From UHGV virus genome UHGV-0179848: a stretch of 39,611 nucleotides of DNA; one strand, given 5' to 3'. A program made the translations under genes and the position numbers. The DNA comes from a virus. This document shows, one piece after another, positions 11,374-19,880 of the stretch. The notes below the pieces were generated by a model. The model was given only the letters and a program-made list of their open reading frames with translations. It did not search any database and had not been told where the DNA came from. Numbering within the stretch: the first letter of the stretch is position 1; each line of letters starts with the position of its first letter.

Positions 11374-12715
11374 TGATCACCTCCACGCTGCGGCCACCCG
11401 GAACAAAAACCGGATCGGGGATGTTGTTTCTGCGGACAAAATACTGCCAGCGGCGGCTGTTGCCGGTGGCACGGTACAGCGTGACCAGTGCCGGTTCGGT
11501 GGTTCGCACCATGACCTGAAAAGCGCCGGGAAGATGAACACTCCGCGTGGTTAAATCTTCTGTCAGCGCAAGCCCTGCATCACGTAATGCAAGGGCGGTG
11601 CCGGTATGGCCCTGTGCGGACAGATCCAGTACCTGTTGTTCCATGGCATCACTCAAATCCCGGTTGATACGCTGCACATCGGCAGAACTTTCCAGCCAGG
11701 CCAGTCCACCCGCACGGTCAGTATCCTGAACGTGCGTTGTATTCTGCCGGATGACCTGATCCAGCAGTTTCCCGACCGTCTGCGCCTGCGACACCAGGGT
11801 TGCACTCTGCATGACGCTCCGCAGCAGACGGATATTTTTCTGTGCCGCAGGCGTCAGACCAATCAGGCGCTGCGGATCATCCTGTTCGCTGAGGGTGTAA
11901 CGCAGGGAAGAAAGTGTGCGGTACAGCTGCGGCATTGCCTGCTCTGTCATGCTGTCACGGTTTGTGGTCAGGCTGCCGGACGGCCTTCCTGCCTTCCCGG
12001 TCAGTGACAGGGAAGGATTGCCGGGCAGCCCGGTCAGCACGGCAAATATTCCGGCCAGCGATTCAGCCATGCGACGGGGCGCATTAATCAGGGCGGCGGC
12101 ATTGCCTTTAATGGCGGTAAAACTGGCCGTAAAGGCACTGACATCCTGCACAATCCCCATCCCTGAAACGGCATTCTCCAGCGCATCAATCTTATCGCTG
12201 ATGGTGTCGGTCATGGCCTGAACATCATGCAGACCGTCTGAAATCACCGTCCAGCCGTCTGAAAGCGTGTTAAACAGCTGATTCATTGCTGAACCGCTTT
12301 TCTGCTCCAGCGCAGCTGCCGTATCTTCTACCACCGAAGGGGCGGTATCGTCACTGGCGGGTATCACGTTGATCGTGAACTCAACCGTTCCCTGCTCGCT
12401 GGCGTTATAACGGCTTTCAAAGCTGTTTATCAGCACGTTTAACGTGCCGTAATCCGGGTGCATCAGTTCACCGGCACCGGGTGCACGCAGCGCATCACGC
12501 AGGCGGCTTCGCTGTGTCTGAAGATCGTCTCCGGTCACCAGAACCGTGAATGTGAACTCCGGGAGTTTTGGCCCCAGATCATCCGCACCGCCGCTTTCAC
12601 GCAGTGGGTATTCACGGCGCACAATGTTACGTCCGCCCCGTTCCCGCTGCTCCTGATAAACCAGGAACGGTACGCCACGAAAGGAGCCACGCCCCGGCGT
12701 GTCAGTAGAGGCCAT
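11357..12715 (-). CDS. DNA circularisation protein (Mu N / gp43-like)
   Basis: 452 aa immediately downstream of the tape measure gene, as Mu N. Confidence 0.8.
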   Translation of the reverse strand: MASTDTPGRGSFRGVPFLVYQEQRERGGRNIVRREYPLRESGGADDLGPKLPEFTFTVLVTGDDLQTQRSRLRDALRAPGAGELMHPDYGTLNVLINSFESRYNASEQGTVEFTINVIPASDDTAPSVVEDTAAALEQKSGSAMNQLFNTLSDGWTVISDGLHDVQAMTDTISDKIDALENAVSGMGIVQDVSAFTASFTAIKGNAAALINAPRRMAESLAGIFAVLTGLPGNPSLSLTGKAGRPSGSLTTNRDSMTEQAMPQLYRTLSSLRYTLSEQDDPQRLIGLTPAAQKNIRLLRSVMQSATLVSQAQTVGKLLDQVIRQNTTHVQDTDRAGGLAWLESSADVQRINRDLSDAMEQQVLDLSAQGHTGTALALRDAGLALTEDLTTRSVHLPGAFQVMVRTTEPALVTLYRATGNSRRWQYFVRRNNIPDPVFVPGGRSVEVISEQQD

Positions 12716-14759
12716 AGTTCCCTCCGTTCCAGACGTTCACATCCAGGCCATGCTGTGCGGTATCATCCACATCAATACTACGCGCCCGCCAGCCTTCAGG
12801 GGCCACAAGCTCTACCCGTGCGGCGGTTTTCGCGGTGGCCTGTCCGCCGTTTTCGTCACTGCTGCCACGCAGTTTCTGCCAGGCCTGCGTCAGCCAGCCC
12901 CCCAGATAATCACCGAGATAGCTGCCCACTGTGGAACCAATGGCAACCCCGACCGGACCGGCAGCCGCCCCCAGCGCGCCACCGGCGATACTTCCGGCAA
13001 GGGAACCCACGGCACCGGCTTTATCGGCTGCACTGGCGCTGCTGTCCAGCAGTACAGGAGCCGCCATGGCACCGGCCCACAGGGCACCCCCACCCAGCCG
13101 ACCGGCACCACGGAACAGCCCGGCAAAACGCCCCAGCCCCATGCGGTTTCCGGCCGCCGAAAGCAGACCACCGGCACGGCTCATCATACGACCGAAGAAG
13201 CCCTGTTTACCGGCGCTCTCCGCCAGCTGCTCACCGGCGGTCACGACGGTCGTGACACCCCGCCCGCGTCCGGGGCCGCGTTTTTTACGGTAGCGCACGG
13301 TTTTGCCGTCACCGCTGACCACCACATCCCCGCCGCCTGAGGCCAGGCCACCCGCAGGCCAGTTGGTGACCAGCACGGGCTGAACGGCAGCAGGATTTAC
13401 CCCGGTAAGGAAATTCAGGAAGCGGCCAGCGCGTCCGGGCTGCGTTCCCGGCACAGTGGTCTGCGGTTTGCGGAAGGGCGACGTCAGCACGGAGGTCATC
13501 GCCATACCATAGCGTAAGGGGGTTGCGCCGAGACGTAATGCTCCCGCCCCCGCAAACCTGAGCACCTTCAGCGCGCGGGAGGCGAGATACATATACATCA
13601 GGTATTTTGCGGCGGTCTGCGCCCCCTGACCAATACGATCCAGTGCATCGCCATAACCGGCGTCGCGCAGTGCCTGAAGCGTTTCCCTGACTTTCTGAAT
13701 GGCACGGTAAAAGCCGGTTGCAGCGTCTCTGGCATACTCGAATCCCTGATTCAGGGCCGAGGCCGTCTGTGTGGCCAGCTTATCCTGTAAGCCGCTTTTC
13801 TGTGCCGCATCAGCATAATCCAGGAAGCCTTTCAGGCTCTTTTTCAGACTGTCAAACGGTCCCTTTGCCATCACTTCACGGGCAAACTGATCCCAGACGT
13901 CGCCCATCATGGACGTCATTCCCGTCCAGGAATTCATGGCGTTTTTCTGGGCACCTTTTGCCTGTTCGGCCATCACCTGAAATAACAGGCGAATGCTGTC
14001 CGGCCCCAGTTTTCCTTTTTCGCCTTTCTCACGGATGAGCTTCTGGTTTACGCCCAGCTTATCGGCCAGTAACTGGTAAACGTTAATCCCGTATCCGGTC
14101 AGAATATTGGCGTCCGCTGCCTGGATACTCTGGCGGGCAAACATCTGTTTGAGTTGCAGGGACGCACCCTGTGCATCTGACAGTGACCAGCCGTGATAGC
14201 CGCCCTGATCCTGAAGCATGGTAATAAAGCGACGGGCTTCCCTGTCACTCATGCCAAACCCGCGACTGGAGGCGTATTCCTGCATAACCCCCGCCAGCCC
14301 CCAGGTAGTGTCTTTGGCGTTCTGTACTGCCCAGGCTTTCACTGCTTCCGTTTTTGCCTTATCGCCATGATTAATGGCGTTGAGACGCAGAATATAGTTC
14401 TCCATCTCTGCGGCCGGGCGGATAAAGGCTTTATTAAAACCGTAGACCGCAGCCCCTCCCGCCAGCATCCCGTAAAGGTTGCTTATCCGCCCGATGGTGC
14501 CGGTAATGCTGCCCTGCAGGCGGTCAAAATCTGACGTTACCGTGCGGATGCTGCCACGAACACCGGCAAGCGTTCGCTGCATACGGGAGCCGACAAGTTC
14601 TGTTTCCTGACCGGCCCGGCGGGCTGCATTTCCAAGACCACCCAGGCCTGTCCTGCCGGAACGGGAGAACGCCCCCAGCTCCTGTGACCACTGGCGGGAT
14701 TTGGCGGAAATATTGCCGAGTAAATCGACAATCAGGGAGGCTTTCAGGTTTTTTGCCAT
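12702..14759 (-). CDS. Tail tape measure protein (Mu gp42-like)
   Basis: 685 aa, Gly/Ala-rich C-terminal region, located between chaperone and N-like gene. Confidence 0.85.
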   Translation of the reverse strand: MAKNLKASLIVDLLGNISAKSRQWSQELGAFSRSGRTGLGGLGNAARRAGQETELVGSRMQRTLAGVRGSIRTVTSDFDRLQGSITGTIGRISNLYGMLAGGAAVYGFNKAFIRPAAEMENYILRLNAINHGDKAKTEAVKAWAVQNAKDTTWGLAGVMQEYASSRGFGMSDREARRFITMLQDQGGYHGWSLSDAQGASLQLKQMFARQSIQAADANILTGYGINVYQLLADKLGVNQKLIREKGEKGKLGPDSIRLLFQVMAEQAKGAQKNAMNSWTGMTSMMGDVWDQFAREVMAKGPFDSLKKSLKGFLDYADAAQKSGLQDKLATQTASALNQGFEYARDAATGFYRAIQKVRETLQALRDAGYGDALDRIGQGAQTAAKYLMYMYLASRALKVLRFAGAGALRLGATPLRYGMAMTSVLTSPFRKPQTTVPGTQPGRAGRFLNFLTGVNPAAVQPVLVTNWPAGGLASGGGDVVVSGDGKTVRYRKKRGPGRGRGVTTVVTAGEQLAESAGKQGFFGRMMSRAGGLLSAAGNRMGLGRFAGLFRGAGRLGGGALWAGAMAAPVLLDSSASAADKAGAVGSLAGSIAGGALGAAAGPVGVAIGSTVGSYLGDYLGGWLTQAWQKLRGSSDENGGQATAKTAARVELVAPEGWRARSIDVDDTAQHGLDVNVWNGGNYGLY

Positions 14760-14762
14760 GGG

Positions 14763-14957
14763 TTACTGCTTCGTTCTGAGAATTTTTTCGGTCTGTCGGC
14801 AGTGCCGGTAAAGCTGCGATAAGGGGAGGTTAAGCGCCCACTCCGGGCCGCTTTTTGTCACCATCCCCAGCACAATTGCGGCTTCTTCAATCTGATCCCG
14901 GCACTGCATCTGGTCGCCCCCGTTCAGCGACCAGCTTTCCTGCCATCGCGGAATCAA
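14763..14957 (-). CDS. Candidate frameshift extension of the tail assembly chaperone
   Basis: Alternative-frame ORF overlaps the 3' end of 14887-15363 and exactly fills the gap to the tape measure start at 14759; CGGGGGC run in the overlap. Confidence 0.3.
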   Translation of the reverse strand: MIPRWQESWSLNGGDQMQCRDQIEEAAIVLGMVTKSGPEWALNLPLSQLYRHCRQTEKILRTKQ

Positions 14958-15363
14958 GCAGGCTTACCGCCGCCATCAGACGGGAGAGATCGCGCTCGCT
15001 GAGCTGTCCGATCTGACGCGGAGATAATGGCCCCTCAATCTGGCCGACAGCGGCAATCTGACGGCGCAGCAGCGCAATGCCGCGCAGTGCCGGAGAGGCC
15101 ACCAGAACCGGACCGTTTCGGGTTTCCATAAGACGCTCGGCCTCACTCTCCGCATCAATGCTGTCTTTCGCCGTCAGTTCGCGGAAGGTGACGCGGTATT
15201 CACGGGATTCACCGAACGGCAGGCCGTCGAGCAGATCCACATAGCCGTTCACCAGCTGTTCAGCCAGCCCGGCGGTGCGGGGATCGCCGTCCTCAAGTGC
15301 ATCCCGGATAGCCTCCATCACGGCCTCGTCAGAAACCGCCGTTTTTTTCTTACGTGTGGTCAT
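14887..15363 (-). CDS. Tail assembly chaperone (Mu gp41-like)
   Basis: 158-aa acidic protein between tube and tape measure genes. Confidence 0.65.
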   Translation of the reverse strand: MTTRKKKTAVSDEAVMEAIRDALEDGDPRTAGLAEQLVNGYVDLLDGLPFGESREYRVTFRELTAKDSIDAESEAERLMETRNGPVLVASPALRGIALLRRQIAAVGQIEGPLSPRQIGQLSERDLSRLMAAVSLLDSAMAGKLVAERGRPDAVPGSD

Positions 15364-15377
15364 TGCATTTTTCCTGA

Positions 15378-15743
15378 TTACTGGACACGGGTACTGGTGG
15401 CGCTGGCGAACTTCGCGGAGATATCACCGCCACCGTCAATCGAGGCCGGTTCACTGCTCCAGGCCTTCGTCATCATGTGGACTTCACCGGTATCGGCCAC
15501 AAACTCAATCGTGACCGCAGTCCAGGTGTTGATTTCATCGGCAGCCGGTGAACCTTCTCCGCCAGCCGGAAATTTACAGTCCAGCGTCGCCTCACGGGGT
15601 TTCTCGCGATAGCCGTAGACTTTCGCGCCTTTCACCACTTCACGCTCAAAGCCGGACGGGGAGAACGTGGCTCCCTCAAGGGTGGCGTACTCCTGTCCGT
15701 TCACACGGATGGTGGCCGTGCCCTGATACTGTTTTCCGCTCAT
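15378..15743 (-). CDS. Tail tube protein (Mu M / gp40-like)
   Basis: 121 aa directly downstream of the sheath gene. Confidence 0.85.
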   Translation of the reverse strand: MSGKQYQGTATIRVNGQEYATLEGATFSPSGFEREVVKGAKVYGYREKPREATLDCKFPAGGEGSPAADEINTWTAVTIEFVADTGEVHMMTKAWSSEPASIDGGGDISAKFASATSTRVQ

Positions 15744-15751
15744 GCCTTACC

Positions 15752-17254
15752 TCACAAAATGAAACGGATCTGTGCTGCCAGGAAGCGGAACTGGTTAACC
15801 AGATCCGGCGTGCATAACACGTCAAGGCGGTTTCGATCTGACGTATTACGCTCCACAAGCAGATTCTTTTTAAACGTGTCCAGATTTTCGACCAGCCCGA
15901 GTTCCACCCACTCTTCACCCAGCGAAATTAACTGAAGCTTCATGATCTCCGGCGTCACGATATTCTGACCGGCACGAACGGGCGTCCCGTCATCAGCCAG
16001 TTTATGGCGCGGAAAACGTTGAGTGATGAAAGTGCGCAGGGAATAACGCAGATATGACAGGGTGTAGATGGTTTCCACATCCAGATAGCTGGGATCACTT
16101 TCGCCGTACACGTTCTGGCGATACATCGTCACCTGACGCTCAATCTGAACCATATCCCCGGCCGCCACACTGACCGTGGCAATCCCTCCCCACAGCAGAC
16201 TGTTACGCTCTTCACGCGTCAGACGATCGGCCGGGGCCGGGGCCATGCGTGACGGAAGCGCCAGCGTCTGAAGCGGACGCGCAGGATCTGCTCCCAGAGA
16301 GGGTGCACAGGTGGCACAGACCGCCGCTGCCCAGAGGTAATCCGGTTCAGGGGCTTTGGGAATGGATGTGCAGGTCGCCAGAAAATCATTGCGTTTTGCC
16401 CCGAATGCCTGCACCTCACCAAACGTGCCGGTATGTGCCAGCCACAGCACGCCGTCAGACATTTTGGCCGGTCCCCAGCGTTTCAGAAGTTCATCACTGA
16501 TGATTTTCAGGTTTGCATCGTCCTTGTAGGGCATGACAACATAGTTGTACTGGCGATCCCCCATTCCGGCCACACTTCGGGTGATATCGGGATTGCGGGC
16601 TCTTGAGGAGGGAAAGCCTGTCTGGGGCGTCAGCCCTGACGGCAGGGTTTCACCGTCGTGATAATTCAGGCGCAGATCGTGCACAGAGCATTCACCAATG
16701 AAGCGGGCGCTCACTCCCATACTTCCTTTCAGACCGCCTGCATTACTGCCATCAACAACCGCAGATACAGCTGTGAATGGCGCATCAGTATCCTTATTTA
16801 TCAGGGCAACAAGCGCATCAATGATAGCTTTTCCTTTTTGTCCGGCTTTTACGGGCAGCGCATAGCGTCGTCCACCAATATAGATGCAGAGCAAACCATC
16901 GGTCGCAGCCGTACCGGTAAGGTTAAAGGCGGCGGCATTTGCCCCGCCTGTTCCGGCCCCCTGCGCAATAGCATACAGTTCCGCATCAGGATTGATGGCA
17001 ATAAATTCAGCCACCATCAGAGCGATCATGGAGCCACGCCCCCAGAGCTCCACAGCCTGAGAGGCGCGAGTGATCCTGACCGGAACATCCAGCACACCGG
17101 TACCGTCCACAGCATTCTCTTTCATTCTCGCCTGACCAAACAGCAGCACACACTGACGCTGTGCCGGGGTGCCGGTGACCGCCATGGAGTTATTAAACTC
17201 AACCCCAATCAGCGGTATACGGCGGTCATTACCGATCCCGTCAAAATTAATCAT
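15752..17254 (-). CDS. Contractile tail sheath protein (Mu L / gp39-like)
   Basis: 500 aa, size and position as Mu L. Confidence 0.9.
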   Translation of the reverse strand: MINFDGIGNDRRIPLIGVEFNNSMAVTGTPAQRQCVLLFGQARMKENAVDGTGVLDVPVRITRASQAVELWGRGSMIALMVAEFIAINPDAELYAIAQGAGTGGANAAAFNLTGTAATDGLLCIYIGGRRYALPVKAGQKGKAIIDALVALINKDTDAPFTAVSAVVDGSNAGGLKGSMGVSARFIGECSVHDLRLNYHDGETLPSGLTPQTGFPSSRARNPDITRSVAGMGDRQYNYVVMPYKDDANLKIISDELLKRWGPAKMSDGVLWLAHTGTFGEVQAFGAKRNDFLATCTSIPKAPEPDYLWAAAVCATCAPSLGADPARPLQTLALPSRMAPAPADRLTREERNSLLWGGIATVSVAAGDMVQIERQVTMYRQNVYGESDPSYLDVETIYTLSYLRYSLRTFITQRFPRHKLADDGTPVRAGQNIVTPEIMKLQLISLGEEWVELGLVENLDTFKKNLLVERNTSDRNRLDVLCTPDLVNQFRFLAAQIRFIL

Positions 17255-17496: not shown

Positions 17497-18057
17497 TTAC
17501 AGTTCCTCCGGCGGTTCGACCGCCGTTGTCGTGTTCCCCGGCAAATCAATATGTGCCTCAAACGGCGGCGTACCGGGCGGCTCCACAAAGGTTTCGTAAT
17601 GACGCAGGAAGTCGTCCAGCGAGCTGATATCCGTCAGTGGCGCGATCATTTCCTCGCAGGAGAAATAAAGCGCATACATCACGGCCCCACTGTTCGCCTG
17701 GGTTTCGGTGTAACCGTTGACCGCCTTTTCAAAGTAAAGCGGTGAGGTTTTTTCTGTTCTGAAGCCGTTAAGCACGGCAATCAGCCGGGCCACAATCTGA
17801 TACAGTCCGGGACGGCTGGCCTCACGCCCGTTGAGCATGTCGCCGATGACGTAGAACACCCAGTGACTGACCAGGCGACCACGGGTACGGCCTTCACCGG
17901 CACCCAGCCAGGCAACGTAGATCGCCGGAGCGTTAATCAGCATGGTGCGCAGTACGCTGTCGCTCCAGTCGCCGGGATGCGTGTCAACAGACACAAGTTC
18001 ATTCCCGAAATACTCACGGATACGGGCGATGTATGCCTGTTCGGTTTCCGTAATCAT
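17497..18057 (-). CDS. Head-tail joining protein (Mu gp37-like)
   Basis: 186 aa; synteny with Mu K. Confidence 0.7.
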   Translation of the reverse strand: MITETEQAYIARIREYFGNELVSVDTHPGDWSDSVLRTMLINAPAIYVAWLGAGEGRTRGRLVSHWVFYVIGDMLNGREASRPGLYQIVARLIAVLNGFRTEKTSPLYFEKAVNGYTETQANSGAVMYALYFSCEEMIAPLTDISSLDDFLRHYETFVEPPGTPPFEAHIDLPGNTTTAVEPPEEL

Positions 18058-18473
18058 ATGAAGCCCTTCTGGTTGCGCCCGAATACCGCCGCATCAGACT
18101 GAACCTGTGGTAAATCCCCGGATTCAGGGGCCGCACCGTTCGTATCCACACCGACCGGCACATTGCCGTTCATGACATCTTTCAGCCAGGCCAGCGCTTC
18201 GCGGTAACGGTCACGCGCCTGATCGGAGGCTCTCTGATCGCACAGGTAATAAAAGGCAATCGCGCAACAGTGCTGAACAAGAACTGCCGGAATAACCTCC
18301 AGCGGCAGCGTGTAACGGGCGGACAGATAGCTGTCGATAAGGGCTGACGCATCTGTCAGCGCCCGGTTCAGCTTGCGCGTGTCCGGCTCATCCGAACGGG
18401 GCACTGCCAGTAACGGCCTGAGCAAATCCTCGCGGTAACGCGCCCGCATATCGGTTTCAGTGGCGTAATTCAT
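18054..18473 (-). CDS. Head-tail connector protein (Mu gp36-like)
   Basis: 139 aa; synteny with Mu J. Confidence 0.7.
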   Translation of the reverse strand: MNYATETDMRARYREDLLRPLLAVPRSDEPDTRKLNRALTDASALIDSYLSARYTLPLEVIPAVLVQHCCAIAFYYLCDQRASDQARDRYREALAWLKDVMNGNVPVGVDTNGAAPESGDLPQVQSDAAVFGRNQKGFI

Positions 18474-18889
18474 GCGTGGGCCTTTTTCGCCTGTTTCGCT
18501 TTGTTACCGGTCTTTTTCCGGGGAGCATCCTGTCCGGCTTCGGCTTCGGCTTCGGCTTCGGCTTCGGCTTCGGCTTCGGCTTCGGCTTCGGCTTCGGCTT
18601 CGGCTTCGGCTAAATCTGTACCGGCCACTGCATGAACCACACCCGCCACGCTCCCCGCATCATCAGCAGGCGTCTGTAGTATTCGCACAGTGAGGCATGG
18701 CTCCGCCTCCAGTCGGGCAAGCTGCTCCGGGGTGACCTCAACCTGCTGACGTCCACGCGTGAACAGGAACCCCGCACGACGAAACGCCGAACGACTGCAA
18801 CGCACTTCTGCCAGCACCGTGACAGAATTGTCACCACTGACCTGAAGACCTGAATCATCTGTTGCTGCCACAGTGTGATGTTCATTCAT
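18470..18889 (-). CDS. Hypothetical head-region protein with (Ala-Glu)n repeat and Lys-rich C-terminus
   Basis: 139-aa ORF between major capsid and gp36-like genes; about 13 AE dipeptides encoded by a hexanucleotide microsatellite. Confidence 0.6.
   Translation of the reverse strand: MNEHHTVAATDDSGLQVSGDNSVTVLAEVRCSRSAFRRAGFLFTRGRQQVEVTPEQLARLEAEPCLTVRILQTPADDAGSVAGVVHAVAGTDLAEAEAEAEAEAEAEAEAEAEAEAEAGQDAPRKKTGNKAKQAKKAHA
18535..18610. repeat. Tandem hexanucleotide repeat (GGCTTC/GAAGCC), about 12.5 copies
   Basis: Perfect repeat directly visible; in frame within the 18470-18889 gene. Confidence 0.95.
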
Positions 18890-18932: not shown

Positions 18933-19880
18933 TTACAGATAATCCGCGACAACCAGCTCCAGCTTGCCCTTCATCTCGTTAGAGACGGTTGCGTTTCCGT
19001 CTGCGAACAGTTCACGCTCCAGCAGCTGCACCGCCTGTTTTTCCAGCGAGGTGGGGACAACAATATGGGTGGGTTTGATGCCGAGTTTGCGGCCACCGTC
19101 AGCGGTAAATTCGCGCATGGCTGACCAGCCGTGCCACAGTGCATCCAGCGTCAGCGGTGACTGCATCATGTAGGCCATCTGCCAGAAGCCGTAGCCCACA
19201 TTGCGACGGGCGGAAGCACCGAACACAAATTCGTTATCGGTGAATGCGCGACCTTCATCGACTTTGGTCTGGGCAACCAGTTCAGCCTTACGGCGATCCT
19301 GATAAATCAGCGGTTTGATTGCGCGTGAACAGTCGAGCAGATACCAGGCAGGACCGCTGTAATCCGCCTGTGCACCGACAGAGCCGGTTTTTGCCACAAA
19401 CATATTGCTGACCATCTGCACATCCCCGGAGCCATCCACTTTGGGGTAAACAGGATGTTCGGTATCAAAGAAGTTCTGGCCGTCATAGCAGGCCGCATTA
19501 ATCCCGTCACGAAGAGCAGCAAAGACCAGTTCATCCGGTTGTGCCGCAGCAGCGCGCCCCATCTCCTGGAACAACGGGGAATAAATACCGAGGTTATCGT
19601 CTTCGAAGTCATCGCGGTTAATGGCGACGGTGCCTTCAAAGGTTTTGTTCACGATGGCATAGCCATAGGCCTTCATCTTCTCGATGACGCGGGAGCCGAT
19701 CCACTCACGGAACTGCGGGAACTGCCCCAGCCAGCCGTAGGTGTTGGATTTCGAGGTGGAGGGCACGGTCATCGCAATTTTTTTGTACTGCGACGGGGCC
19801 ATGGACATCCCGGCCTGAAAATCAGAACGGTAGCCCGTCATCAGGGCGGTGATCATCGCCGGTGTAATCGGGGTAGGCAT
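18933..19880 (-). CDS. Major capsid protein (Mu T / gp34-like)
   Basis: 315 aa, size and position as Mu T. Confidence 0.9.
   Translation of the reverse strand: MPTPITPAMITALMTGYRSDFQAGMSMAPSQYKKIAMTVPSTSKSNTYGWLGQFPQFREWIGSRVIEKMKAYGYAIVNKTFEGTVAINRDDFEDDNLGIYSPLFQEMGRAAAAQPDELVFAALRDGINAACYDGQNFFDTEHPVYPKVDGSGDVQMVSNMFVAKTGSVGAQADYSGPAWYLLDCSRAIKPLIYQDRRKAELVAQTKVDEGRAFTDNEFVFGASARRNVGYGFWQMAYMMQSPLTLDALWHGWSAMREFTADGGRKLGIKPTHIVVPTSLEKQAVQLLERELFADGNATVSNEMKGKLELVVADYL

What the first reader, a model, noticed from the sequence alone, without database searches (positions are those of the whole stretch)
14763..14957. Candidate programmed frameshift in the tail assembly chaperone
An ORF in an alternative frame overlaps the end of the chaperone gene and exactly fills the otherwise non-coding 128-bp gap before the tape measure start. 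The overlap contains a CGGGGGC run. This matches the conserved chaperone frameshift arrangement of long-tailed phages, but the extension is in the +1 rather than the usual -1 frame, which weakens the case.
Basis: inference. Interest (0 to 1): 0.35.

Follow-up and report, generated by a model that had tools for sequence, protein, structure and literature searches.

The report
Mu-type tail chaperone frameshift site
This is the tail-assembly-chaperone frameshift site of an E. coli Mu-like prophage, carrying the same slip sequence on which phage Mu's ribosome is known to slip two bases back, so the "+1" frame is expected rather than a weakness; a conserved RNA helix just downstream is the only possibly new detail.

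Summary
All genes here are on the minus strand. The chaperone gene (14887-15363, Pfam Gp41_Mu, E=3e-32) is overlapped by a +1-frame ORF (14763-14957). That ORF ends 3 nt before the tape-measure start codon (14759).

The overlap holds GG GGG CGA (14914-14921). This is identical to the slip site where phage Mu makes its documented -2 frameshift, and a -2 shift lands in the "+1" frame.

The open frame alone is not significant: 21% of shuffles match it. The comparative evidence is decisive:
- Every usable related locus keeps the site, including relatives at about 45% chaperone identity.
- All keep a 47-52-codon +1 extension ending -8 to +14 nt from the tape-measure start.
- The -1 frame stays closed in the close relatives and in most others.
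- Substitutions concentrate at third codon positions of the +1 frame.
- The extension is 48% identical to Mu's.

RefSeq leaves the 127-nt gap unannotated.

One extra finding: a 10-bp RNA helix (14898-14907 with 14799-14808) starts 6 nt after the CGA codon. It is paired in 370/370 cells across 37 distinct sequences and shows compensatory changes. It is probably a frameshift stimulator, but this is untested.

Verdict: a new, unannotated member of a known kind. Low-to-moderate interest.

The parts
15378..15743 (-). Tail tube gene, immediately upstream of the chaperone
   Evidence: Pfam Tail_tube PF10618, E=5e-30. ORF coordinates.
14887..15363 (-). Tail assembly chaperone, the frame-0 product (158 aa). 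It is the Mu gp41 homologue and the functional analogue of lambda gpG. TGA stop at 14887-14889.
   Evidence: Pfam Gp41_Mu PF23746, E=3.3e-32. phrog_508 'tail assembly chaperone', E=3e-42. 48% identical to Mu gp41.
14914..14921 (-). Slip site GG GGG CGA. The P-site codon GGG is 14917-14919 and the A-site codon CGA is 14914-14916.
   Evidence: Sequence read. Identical to Mu and SfMu. 'GGG CGA' is in frame in 106 of 111 loci. G149 and R150 are invariant in a 50-sequence family alignment. The slip site is described in PMC3458567.
14763..14918 (-). Extension in the -2/+1 frame: 51 codons plus a TAA stop. It is expressed only as a C-terminal fusion to the chaperone (about 200 aa) and is the analogue of the lambda T domain.
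   Evidence: Matches phrog_12783, E=1.4e-37. 24/50 residues identical to the Mu extension, with a third-position substitution bias. Conserved in distant relatives.
14763..14957 (-). The part 5' of the slip site is merely open and is not conserved as coding.
   Evidence: In other clades the +1 frame opens only 8-11 nt upstream of GGG.
14898..14907 (-). 5' arm (GCAGUGCCGG) of a conserved long-range mRNA helix. It starts 6 nt after the CGA codon.
14799..14808 (-). 3' arm (CCGGCACUGC) of the helix. The enclosed 88-nt loop holds the frame-0 stop and most of the extension coding sequence.
   Evidence: The three invariant degenerate third-codon positions of the extension all lie in this arm.
12702..14759 (-). 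Tape measure protein gene. It starts 3 nt after the extension's stop codon.
   Evidence: Pfam TMP_3 PF20155, E=7e-18. ORF coordinates.

Best explanation
This is a programmed ribosomal frameshift of the phage Mu type.

Most ribosomes translate the chaperone gene to its TGA stop and make the 158-aa chaperone. A small fraction does something else. With tRNA-Gly on GGG in the P site and tRNA-Arg on the slowly decoded CGA in the A site, those ribosomes slip two bases back on GG GGG CGA. They then continue in the frame that looks like +1. The result is a roughly 200-aa fusion: the chaperone plus a 50-51-aa C-terminal domain, ending 3 nt before the tape-measure start.

By analogy with lambda gpG/gpGT, the two proteins in a fixed ratio coat the tape measure protein and recruit the tail tube during tail assembly.

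A 10-bp mRNA helix that begins 6 nt after the A-site codon probably raises or tunes the slip frequency.

Shown here: the anatomy, the homology to Mu, the conservation of the site and of the frame, and the conservation of the helix. Inferred: that the fusion is actually made in this prophage, its frequency, the -2 direction, the role of the helix, and the assembly function.
For: - Gene order is sheath, tube, chaperone, tape measure. The chaperone is Pfam Gp41_Mu, E=3e-32.
- The octamer GG GGG CGA is identical to Mu and SfMu and sits in the same register, 24-30 nt before the frame-0 stop.
- Literature on Mu: tandem -2 slippage on GG GGG CGA (PMC3458567); efficiency about 2.2%, described in 2012 as the only known natural programmed -2 case (PMC3498833); the Mu 10-mer alone gives 14% shift into that frame in a cell-free system (bioRxiv 10.1101/2025.10.02.679949).
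- All 35 close loci keep the +1 extension at 41-44 codons, with the -1 frame extending at most 12. In-frame GGG CGA is present in 106 of 111 loci.
- Relatives at 43-53% chaperone identity keep a 47-52-aa +1 extension ending -8 to +14 nt from the tape-measure start.
- The extension is protein-coding: variable columns by codon position number 20/12/31; it is 24/50 identical to Mu at 60% nucleotide identity; it matches phrog_12783 at E=1e-37.
- The interval in which the shift must occur, common to all 44 distinct sequences, runs from 8 nt before GGG to 24 nt after it. Most Mu-type sequences have no ATG, GTG or TTG in that frame.
- Across 147 representatives clustered at 50% identity, 134 carry a C-terminal x-G-R. 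The x is R in 112 and otherwise only amino acids that have an NNG codon. This points to a nucleotide-level constraint of G GGG CGN.
- Helix: it appears in the MFE and the centroid fold with pair probabilities of at least 0.98. RNAalifold predicts it independently. It is paired in 370/370 cells versus 20-54% when slid, and 0/500 shuffles reach that. Pair types are GC to AU, and CG/UG/UA. The three invariant degenerate third positions all lie in its 3' arm, Fisher p=0.0007. In 15 of 20 representatives, including distant ones with different sequences, a helix starts +9 to +12 nt from GGG at shuffle p of 0.05 or below.
Against: - No experiment exists on this prophage. Nothing here shows that the fusion protein is made, or at what level.
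- The direction of the shift (-2 versus +1) cannot be read from the sequence.
- Several lineages have only four Gs (AAG/TCG/GCG/CAG GGG CGA). That weakens -2 re-pairing of the P-site tRNA, so -2 may not be universal in the family.
- Helix covariation is modest. Seven of 10 pairs never vary, and the one double change (3 sequences) is probably a single event. The arms also encode conserved residues (Cys-Arg; Arg-His-Cys).
- The whole 161-nt region does not fold better than shuffles, z=-0.54.
- The Mu 10-mer shifts efficiently without any flanking structure.
- The primary paper (Xu, Hendrix & Duda 2004) could not be read.
Confidence: 0.9

Rival explanations
1. The shift is +1, not -2. The P-site tRNA-Gly moves from GGG forward onto GGC while the ribosome waits for the slowly decoded CGA codon. 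This gives a 199-aa fusion that lacks one residue at the junction.
For: 'GGG CGA' is the part conserved in nearly all sampled loci. The G upstream of it is lost in several lineages (AAG, TCG, GCG or CAG before GGG). That loss weakens -2 re-pairing but leaves +1 untouched. One relative has a stop codon directly after CGA (L117). CGA is read through an I:A wobble (established knowledge; the tRNA is named in PMC3458567).
Against: The window carries the full Mu octamer, for which -2 was determined experimentally. 112 of 134 family representatives have Arg, and thus probably CGG or AGG (as in all DNA loci sampled), before GGG, which supplies the extra G a -2 shift needs.
Confidence: 0.1
2. The +1-frame ORF is an independent small gene (phrog_12783) translated from its own start codon, not a frameshift extension.
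For: The window has a TTG at 14955-14957 and an ATG 10 nt after GGG. PGAP called a separate 48-aa 'hypothetical protein' there in E. coli strain M1. PHROGs holds the peptide as a stand-alone family.
Against: No start codon is conserved. Most Mu-type sequences have no ATG, GTG or TTG at all in that frame. In many loci the frame opens only 8-11 nt before GGG. The conserved peptide begins exactly at the slip site. No promoter-like site is present.
Confidence: 0.03
3. RNA polymerase slips on the G5 run, producing mRNAs with one extra or two fewer G. The fusion would then be made by normal translation of edited transcripts.
For: The site contains a homopolymer. A few database genomes show the run one G shorter, which puts the two frames in line (L037, L059, L060). 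So run-length variants exist, at least as sequence records.
Against: Five Gs is short for transcriptional slippage, and known cases use longer A or T runs (established knowledge; reviewed in PMC5009743). Lineages with only four Gs keep the arrangement. The invariant CGA next to the run, and a helix 6 nt downstream, fit a ribosomal mechanism rather than a polymerase one. The literature treats the Mu case as ribosomal.
Confidence: 0.03
4. The conserved helix is real but does not act on frameshifting. It might instead control mRNA stability, processing, or tape-measure translation. Alternatively it is a by-product of the conserved Cys-Arg and Arg-His-Cys codons.
For: Seven of 10 pairs are invariant, and both arms encode conserved residues. 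The Mu 10-mer alone shifts at 14% in vitro. The 3' arm lies only 40 nt from the tape-measure start.
Against: Synonymous third positions are frozen only in the 3' arm, p=0.0007. A Cys-to-Tyr change is coupled with a His-to-Tyr change so that the pair is kept. Distant relatives have helices of unrelated sequence that start at the same +9 to +12 position. The 6-nt spacing is typical for a downstream frameshift stimulator (PMC3458567 abstract).
Confidence: 0.35

Closest known systems
Phage Mu gp41 chaperone and its -2 frameshift extension (Xu, Hendrix & Duda 2004, Mol Cell 16:11, as cited in PMC3458567, PMC3498833 and PMC5009743)
   Same: The protein family (Gp41_Mu), the gene position, the octamer GG GGG CGA, the register, the extension frame, the extension length (51 aa), homology of the extension, its end just before the tape measure gene, and the downstream helix (12 bp in Mu).
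   Different: This is a different prophage lineage. The chaperone is 48% identical and carries a 30-aa longer N-terminus. The frame-0 tail is two codons longer, and the helix is 10 bp rather than 12 bp. There is no experimental evidence for this prophage, and the product is not annotated in RefSeq.
Phage lambda gpG/gpGT -1 frameshift
   Same: The logic: a chaperone gene between the major tail gene and the tape measure gene, with a low-frequency shift near its 3' end that adds a domain ending at the tape measure gene. The two products are needed in a fixed ratio (PMC5009743).
   Different: Lambda shifts -1 on a heptamer. Here the -1 frame closes after 9 codons and the shift lands in the other frame. 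No sequence similarity was detected.
Phage P2 E / E+E' chaperone frameshift (Pfam Phage_TAC_7)
   Same: A contractile-tail phage with the same gene position. The chaperone gives a weak Pfam match to Phage_TAC_7, E=5.5e-5 at 23.6 bits, just under the 25-bit cut-off.
   Different: From my own knowledge, and not tested here, P2 uses a -1 shift. The match is below Pfam's gathering score.
E. coli dnaX -1 frameshift signal (slippery site plus downstream stem-loop)
   Same: A bacterial slip site followed a few nucleotides later by a stable helix that acts as a stimulator (general description in the bioRxiv introduction).
   Different: dnaX shifts -1, has a local hairpin, and also has an upstream Shine-Dalgarno-like stimulator. 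Here the helix closes an 88-nt loop, and I saw no conserved upstream Shine-Dalgarno-like element in alignment A5.
Arterivirus nsp2TF -2 frameshift
   Same: A natural programmed -2 shift (PMC5009743).
   Different: It is a eukaryotic RNA virus with a different slip site. From my own knowledge, its stimulator is a protein rather than an RNA helix.

Membership tests
Mu-type -2 programmed frameshift of the tail assembly chaperone | The chaperone gene lies between the tail tube gene and the tape measure gene | tested here: met
   Sheath 15752-17254, tube 15378-15743, chaperone 14887-15363, tape measure 12702-14759, all on the minus strand.
Mu-type -2 programmed frameshift of the tail assembly chaperone | The chaperone is homologous to Mu gp41 | tested here: met
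   PF23746 Gp41_Mu, E=3.3e-32, 111 bits against a 27-bit cut-off. 48% identity to Mu gp41.
Mu-type -2 programmed frameshift of the tail assembly chaperone | [quoted passage not shown] | tested here: met
   Window 14914-14921, 30 nt before the stop. Identical in Mu and SfMu. The site is described in PMC3458567.
Mu-type -2 programmed frameshift of the tail assembly chaperone | An open frame at -2/+1 from the slip site that ends next to the tape measure start, with the -1 frame closed | tested here: met
   51 codons, with the stop 3 nt before the ATG. The -1 frame extends 9 codons.
Mu-type -2 programmed frameshift of the tail assembly chaperone | The extension peptide is homologous to that of Mu and evolves as coding sequence | tested here: met
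   24/50 identical with an ungapped alignment; variable columns by codon position 20/12/31. phrog_12783, E=1.4e-37.
Mu-type -2 programmed frameshift of the tail assembly chaperone | A fusion protein is made at a low percentage of the frame-0 product | not testable with these tools
   This needs a protein gel, mass spectrometry or a reporter assay. No fused protein is on record in the 5.8-billion-cluster database.
Mu-type -2 programmed frameshift of the tail assembly chaperone | The shift is -2, with one extra residue at the junction, rather than +1 | not testable with these tools
   Only the junction peptide sequence can distinguish the two. The claim rests on identity of the site with Mu.
Lambda-type -1 chaperone frameshift (G/GT) | An X XXY YYZ heptamer and an extension in the -1 frame | tested here: not met
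   The -1 frame closes 9 codons after the frame-0 stop. The extension is in the other frame. It works like G/GT but is not a member of the -1 class.
Described RNA frameshift elements (Rfam) | A match to a curated covariance model | tested here: not met
   Only two chance-level snoRNA matches, E=1.4 and 6.3, in 14650-15050.

The most novel reading that the evidence does not exclude
The Mu-type -2 frameshift signal is bipartite. Besides GG GGG CGA it needs, or is tuned by, an mRNA helix that starts 6 nt after the A-site codon. In the enterobacterial phages this is a long-range 10-14-bp helix closing an 88-nt loop that contains the frame-0 stop. In distant relatives a helix of unrelated sequence starts at the same place.

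I found no description of such a stimulator for Mu in the papers I could read.

A second strand: lineages that shortened the G run to four (AAG, TCG or CAG before GGG CGA) may have switched from -2 to +1 slippage at a homologous site.
Probability: 0.4. Interest if true: 0.5.

Novelty: new member of a known kind. Interest (0 to 1): 0.3.

Why it matters
For annotation, RefSeq/PGAP leaves a 127-nt "non-coding" gap here, and no fused product is on record for this widespread E. coli, Shigella and Salmonella prophage family. An essential tail-assembly protein is therefore missing from the gene lists.

For biology, the finding adds nothing categorically new. It is the Mu frameshift in a relative.

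The comparative set does give two testable points about the rare bacterial -2 frameshift:
- a conserved, covarying downstream helix at the spacing expected of a stimulator;
- natural variants of the slip site that should discriminate -2 from +1 slippage.

Tried and rejected
- Chance ORF: shuffling shows the open +1 frame alone is unremarkable, with 21% of shuffles matching it. An empirical null from all ORFs in the window was uninformative. I therefore relied on comparative evidence.
- Profile-based locus retrieval failed twice, with alignments A2 and A3 too diverse. I used a narrower alignment (A4), single-protein scans and exact look-ups instead.
- Pfam and NCBIfam have no model for the extension. 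Only PHROGs does.
- Structure prediction of the fusion from a single sequence gave a poor model (pLDDT 49.5), so I ran no fold search. The extension is merely predicted helical.
- The whole-region fold z-score was not significant, -0.54. Only the specific helix is supported.
- I saw no conserved upstream Shine-Dalgarno-like stimulator in alignment A5.
- There is no Rfam match and no promoter or terminator in the region.
- Xu et al. 2004 and Baranov et al. 2006 could not be retrieved. A literature search for the octamer found only PMC3458567.

Full report
**1. What is there**

The genes of this region are on the minus strand. Listing the ORFs and scanning them against Pfam gives the order:
- tail sheath, 15752-17254;
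- tail tube, 15378-15743;
- a 158-aa protein, 14887-15363, that matches Pfam Gp41_Mu ("Tail assembly protein gp41") at E=3.3e-32;
- a tape measure protein, 12702-14759.

It is in the +1 frame relative to the chaperone and overlaps the chaperone's last 71 nt. It stops (TAA, 14763-14765) 3 nt before the tape-measure ATG. The gap between the two annotated genes is 127 nt.

Read on the minus strand, the end of the chaperone is ...GCT GAA CGG GGG CGA CCA GAT GCA GTG CCG GGA TCA GAT TGA.

**2. Where the window comes from**

The segment is 100% identical to a prophage in E. coli STEC2018-607 and 83-97% identical to prophages in 36 other complete E. coli genomes. It is 90% identical to a "Mu-like phage" inserted in two Stx phage records.

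RefSeq annotates only the 158-aa "phage tail assembly protein" and leaves the gap empty. In one strain PGAP called a separate 48-aa hypothetical protein there.

A search of 5.8 billion protein clusters with the predicted fusion returned only unfused chaperones covering up to 80% of the query (75% for most), plus two 187-aa proteins of about 50% identity. The product is therefore unannotated.

**3. Is it more than chance?**

Not in the single sequence. When the 127-nt gap is shuffled, the +1 frame stays open to the end in 21% of trials. The significance comes from the relatives:
- In 35 close loci (72-100% chaperone identity, plus Mu and SfMu at about 50%), the +1 frame always runs 41-44 codons past the frame-0 stop. 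The -1 frame never runs more than 12 codons.
- In relatives at 43-53% chaperone identity, taken from viral contigs, genomes and metagenomes, an in-frame GGG CGA lies 24-57 nt before the chaperone stop. From it the +1 frame is open for 47-52 codons and ends between -8 and +14 nt from the start of the next long ORF.
- The extension aligns without gaps over 50 codons. It is 24/50 identical between the window and Mu at 60% nucleotide identity. Its variable columns fall 20/12/31 on codon positions 1/2/3 of the +1 frame, the pattern of a translated sequence.
- The extension matches PHROG family 12783 ("unknown function") at E=1.4e-37.

**4. What it is**

Phage Mu and SfMu have exactly the same GAA CGG GGG CGA in the same register, although the DNA around it is only about 69% identical.

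The literature available here says the following:
- Mu expresses its tail assembly chaperone extension by a programmed -2 frameshift (PMC5009743).
- Its efficiency is about 2.2%, and in 2012 it was the only known natural programmed -2 case (PMC3498833).
- The Mu 10-mer alone gives 14% shifting into that frame in a purified cell-free system (bioRxiv 10.1101/2025.10.02.679949).

A -2 shift lands in the frame that looks like +1.

**5. Where the shift must occur**

The shift has to happen after the last upstream stop of the +1 frame and before the frame-0 stop. Across 44 distinct sequences, the interval common to all runs from 8 nt before GGG to 24 nt after it. The Mu-type sequences mostly have no ATG, GTG or TTG in that frame. 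This rules out independent initiation as a general mechanism.

The site also leaves a mark at the protein level. Among 147 family representatives clustered at 50% identity, 134 have x-Gly-Arg near the C-terminus. The x is Arg in 112. Otherwise it is only E, Q, A, S, L, P, T, K, G or W, all amino acids that have an NNG codon. It is never D, N, H, Y, C, F or I, which have none. Gly149 and Arg150 are invariant in a 50-sequence alignment with 33% mean column identity. This is what a nucleotide constraint of G GGG CGN would produce.

**6. Predicted products**

- Frame 0 gives the 158-aa chaperone.
- A tandem -2 slip gives 200 aa with the junction ...AERGR|DQMQCRDQIEEAAIVLGMVTKSGPEWALNLPLSQLYRHCRQTEKILRTKQ.
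- A P-site-only -2 slip gives 200 aa with ...AERG|GDQMQ....
- A +1 slip would give 199 aa with ...AERG|DQMQ....

A single-sequence AlphaFold model was poor (pLDDT 49.5). It only suggests that the extension is helical.

The assembly role is inferred from lambda gpG/gpGT (PMC5009743) and was not tested here. In that model the chaperone part binds the tape measure and the extension recruits the tube protein.

**7. A conserved helix downstream**

This is my own observation. Twelve nucleotides after the first G of the GGG codon, which is 6 nt after CGA, the mRNA reads GCAGUGCCGG (14898-14907). Its perfect complement CCGGCACUGC lies 88 nt further on (14799-14808).

Evidence in this sequence:
- The helix is in the MFE and the centroid fold.
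- The duplex energy is -20.2 kcal/mol, and pair probabilities are at least 0.98 in three sequence contexts.
- Shuffles give about 5 such 10-bp inverted repeats within 140 nt in the whole 39.6-kb window. That is roughly 0.02 expected in a given 150-nt stretch.

Evidence from an ungapped alignment of 37 distinct enterobacterial-type sequences (A5):
- RNAalifold predicts the helix independently.
- All 370 cells are standard pairs, against 20-54% when the partner is slid by 1-3 columns. No shuffle out of 500 reaches this.
- Pair 33-131 is G-C in 34 sequences and A-U in 3. In those three the change is non-synonymous on both sides (Cys to Tyr and His to Tyr), yet the pair is kept.
- Pair 34-130 occurs as C-G (16), U-G (18) and U-A (3). 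The U-A form appears in two different clades. A at column 130 is never combined with C at column 34.
- Pair 30-134 is A-U (20) or G-U (17).
- The G-U pairs show that the helix belongs to the sense RNA, not to the DNA.
- Among the 34 third-codon positions of the non-overlapping extension, the only invariant degenerate ones (columns 127, 133 and 136) all lie in the 3' arm. The fourth arm position is the covarying column 130. Fisher p=0.0007.

Evidence from more distant relatives. The arm sequences are different there, but 15 of 20 representatives have a helix starting +9 to +12 nt from GGG that few shuffles match (15 of 300 or fewer). Examples are +12/+113 with 10 bp, +9/+47 with 13 bp and +11/+50 with 13 bp.

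A stable helix 3-6 nt downstream of the A-site codon is the classical arrangement of a frameshift stimulator. In a eukaryotic model system, -2 shifting was favoured by spacers 1-2 nt shorter than the -1 optimum (PMC3458567 abstract).

Caveats:
- Seven of the 10 pairs never vary.
- The one double change may be a single evolutionary event.
- The arms also encode conserved residues.
- The Mu 10-mer shifts well without any flanking structure in vitro.
- I could not read Xu et al. 2004 to see whether a structure was already described.
- No Rfam family matches the region.

**8. Variation of the slip site**

Most loci have CGG GGG CGA, but several variants occur:
- AAG GGG CGA in a Salmonella/Citrobacter-type clade;
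- TCG or GCG GGG CGA in another clade;
- AGG GGG CGA, and GGG GGG CGA;
- CAG GGG CGA followed directly by TAA, CGG GGG CGC, and CGG GGG AAG in distant relatives.

With only four Gs, the P-site tRNA-Gly cannot fully re-pair after a -2 move, whereas a +1 move onto GGC is unaffected. The direction of the shift may therefore differ between lineages. For the window, which has the full Mu octamer, -2 is the best-supported reading.

**9. Verdict**

The element is a Mu-type -2 programmed frameshift in the tail assembly chaperone of an E. coli Mu-like prophage. It is a new, currently unannotated member of a known kind.

Its value is mainly for annotation. The conserved downstream helix and the natural slip-site variants are modestly interesting and directly testable.

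Noticed in passing
L037/L102 and L059 (Kluyvera genomosp. 3 YDC799, CP022114.1) around locus position 1346-1354; L060 (Erwinia tracheiphila ICMP 5845) position 1346: The G run is one G shorter (CCGGGGCGA / ACGGGGCGA). This puts the chaperone and the extension in one frame as a genomic fusion. L037 and L059 also have a second frame change further on. It could be a homopolymer sequencing error, a decaying prophage, or a real fixed fusion.
   Followed up: partly
L028-L034 (AAG GGG CGA); L052, L053, L063 (TCG GGG CGA); L062 (GCG GGG CGA); L056 (CAG GGG GGG CGA); L117 (CAG GGG CGA TAA); L115 (CGG GGG CGC); L118 (CGG GGG AAG): Natural variants of the slip site in relatives that all keep the +1 extension. 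The four-G variants cannot fully re-pair the P-site tRNA after a -2 move, so they may use +1 slippage.
   Followed up: partly
window 18470-18889 (minus strand): A 139-aa ORF contains a run of about 12 Ala-Glu dipeptides (AEAEAE...). That implies a 6-nt tandem repeat, in the gene just downstream of a 315-aa ORF at 18933-19880.
   Followed up: no
window 14415-14425 and 14483-14493: A perfect 11-bp inverted repeat (CGGGCGGATAA / TTATCCGCCCG) inside the 5' part of the tape measure gene. It is one of about 11 such repeats in the window.
   Followed up: no
window 18054-18473 (minus strand): RefSeq marks the identical stretch in E. coli STEC2018-607 as a pseudogene ('gp436 family protein', internal stop). 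The window nevertheless shows an uninterrupted 139-aa ORF of the same 420-nt length.
   Followed up: no
window 14890-14913 (frame-0 tail of the chaperone): The frame-0 residues Ala-Val after the slip site are invariant across clades (A153 and V154), although they lie in the otherwise variable C-terminal tail. They are encoded by the 5' arm of the helix, so their conservation is probably a by-product of the RNA constraint.
   Followed up: partly
P0102, P0109, P0113, P0238 (representative proteins): Some database 'chaperones' end in peptides that look like out-of-frame readings. P0113's ending matches the Mu +1-frame peptide ...QKCTTWLW.HR. This suggests indel-containing assemblies in the protein collections.
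   Followed up: no
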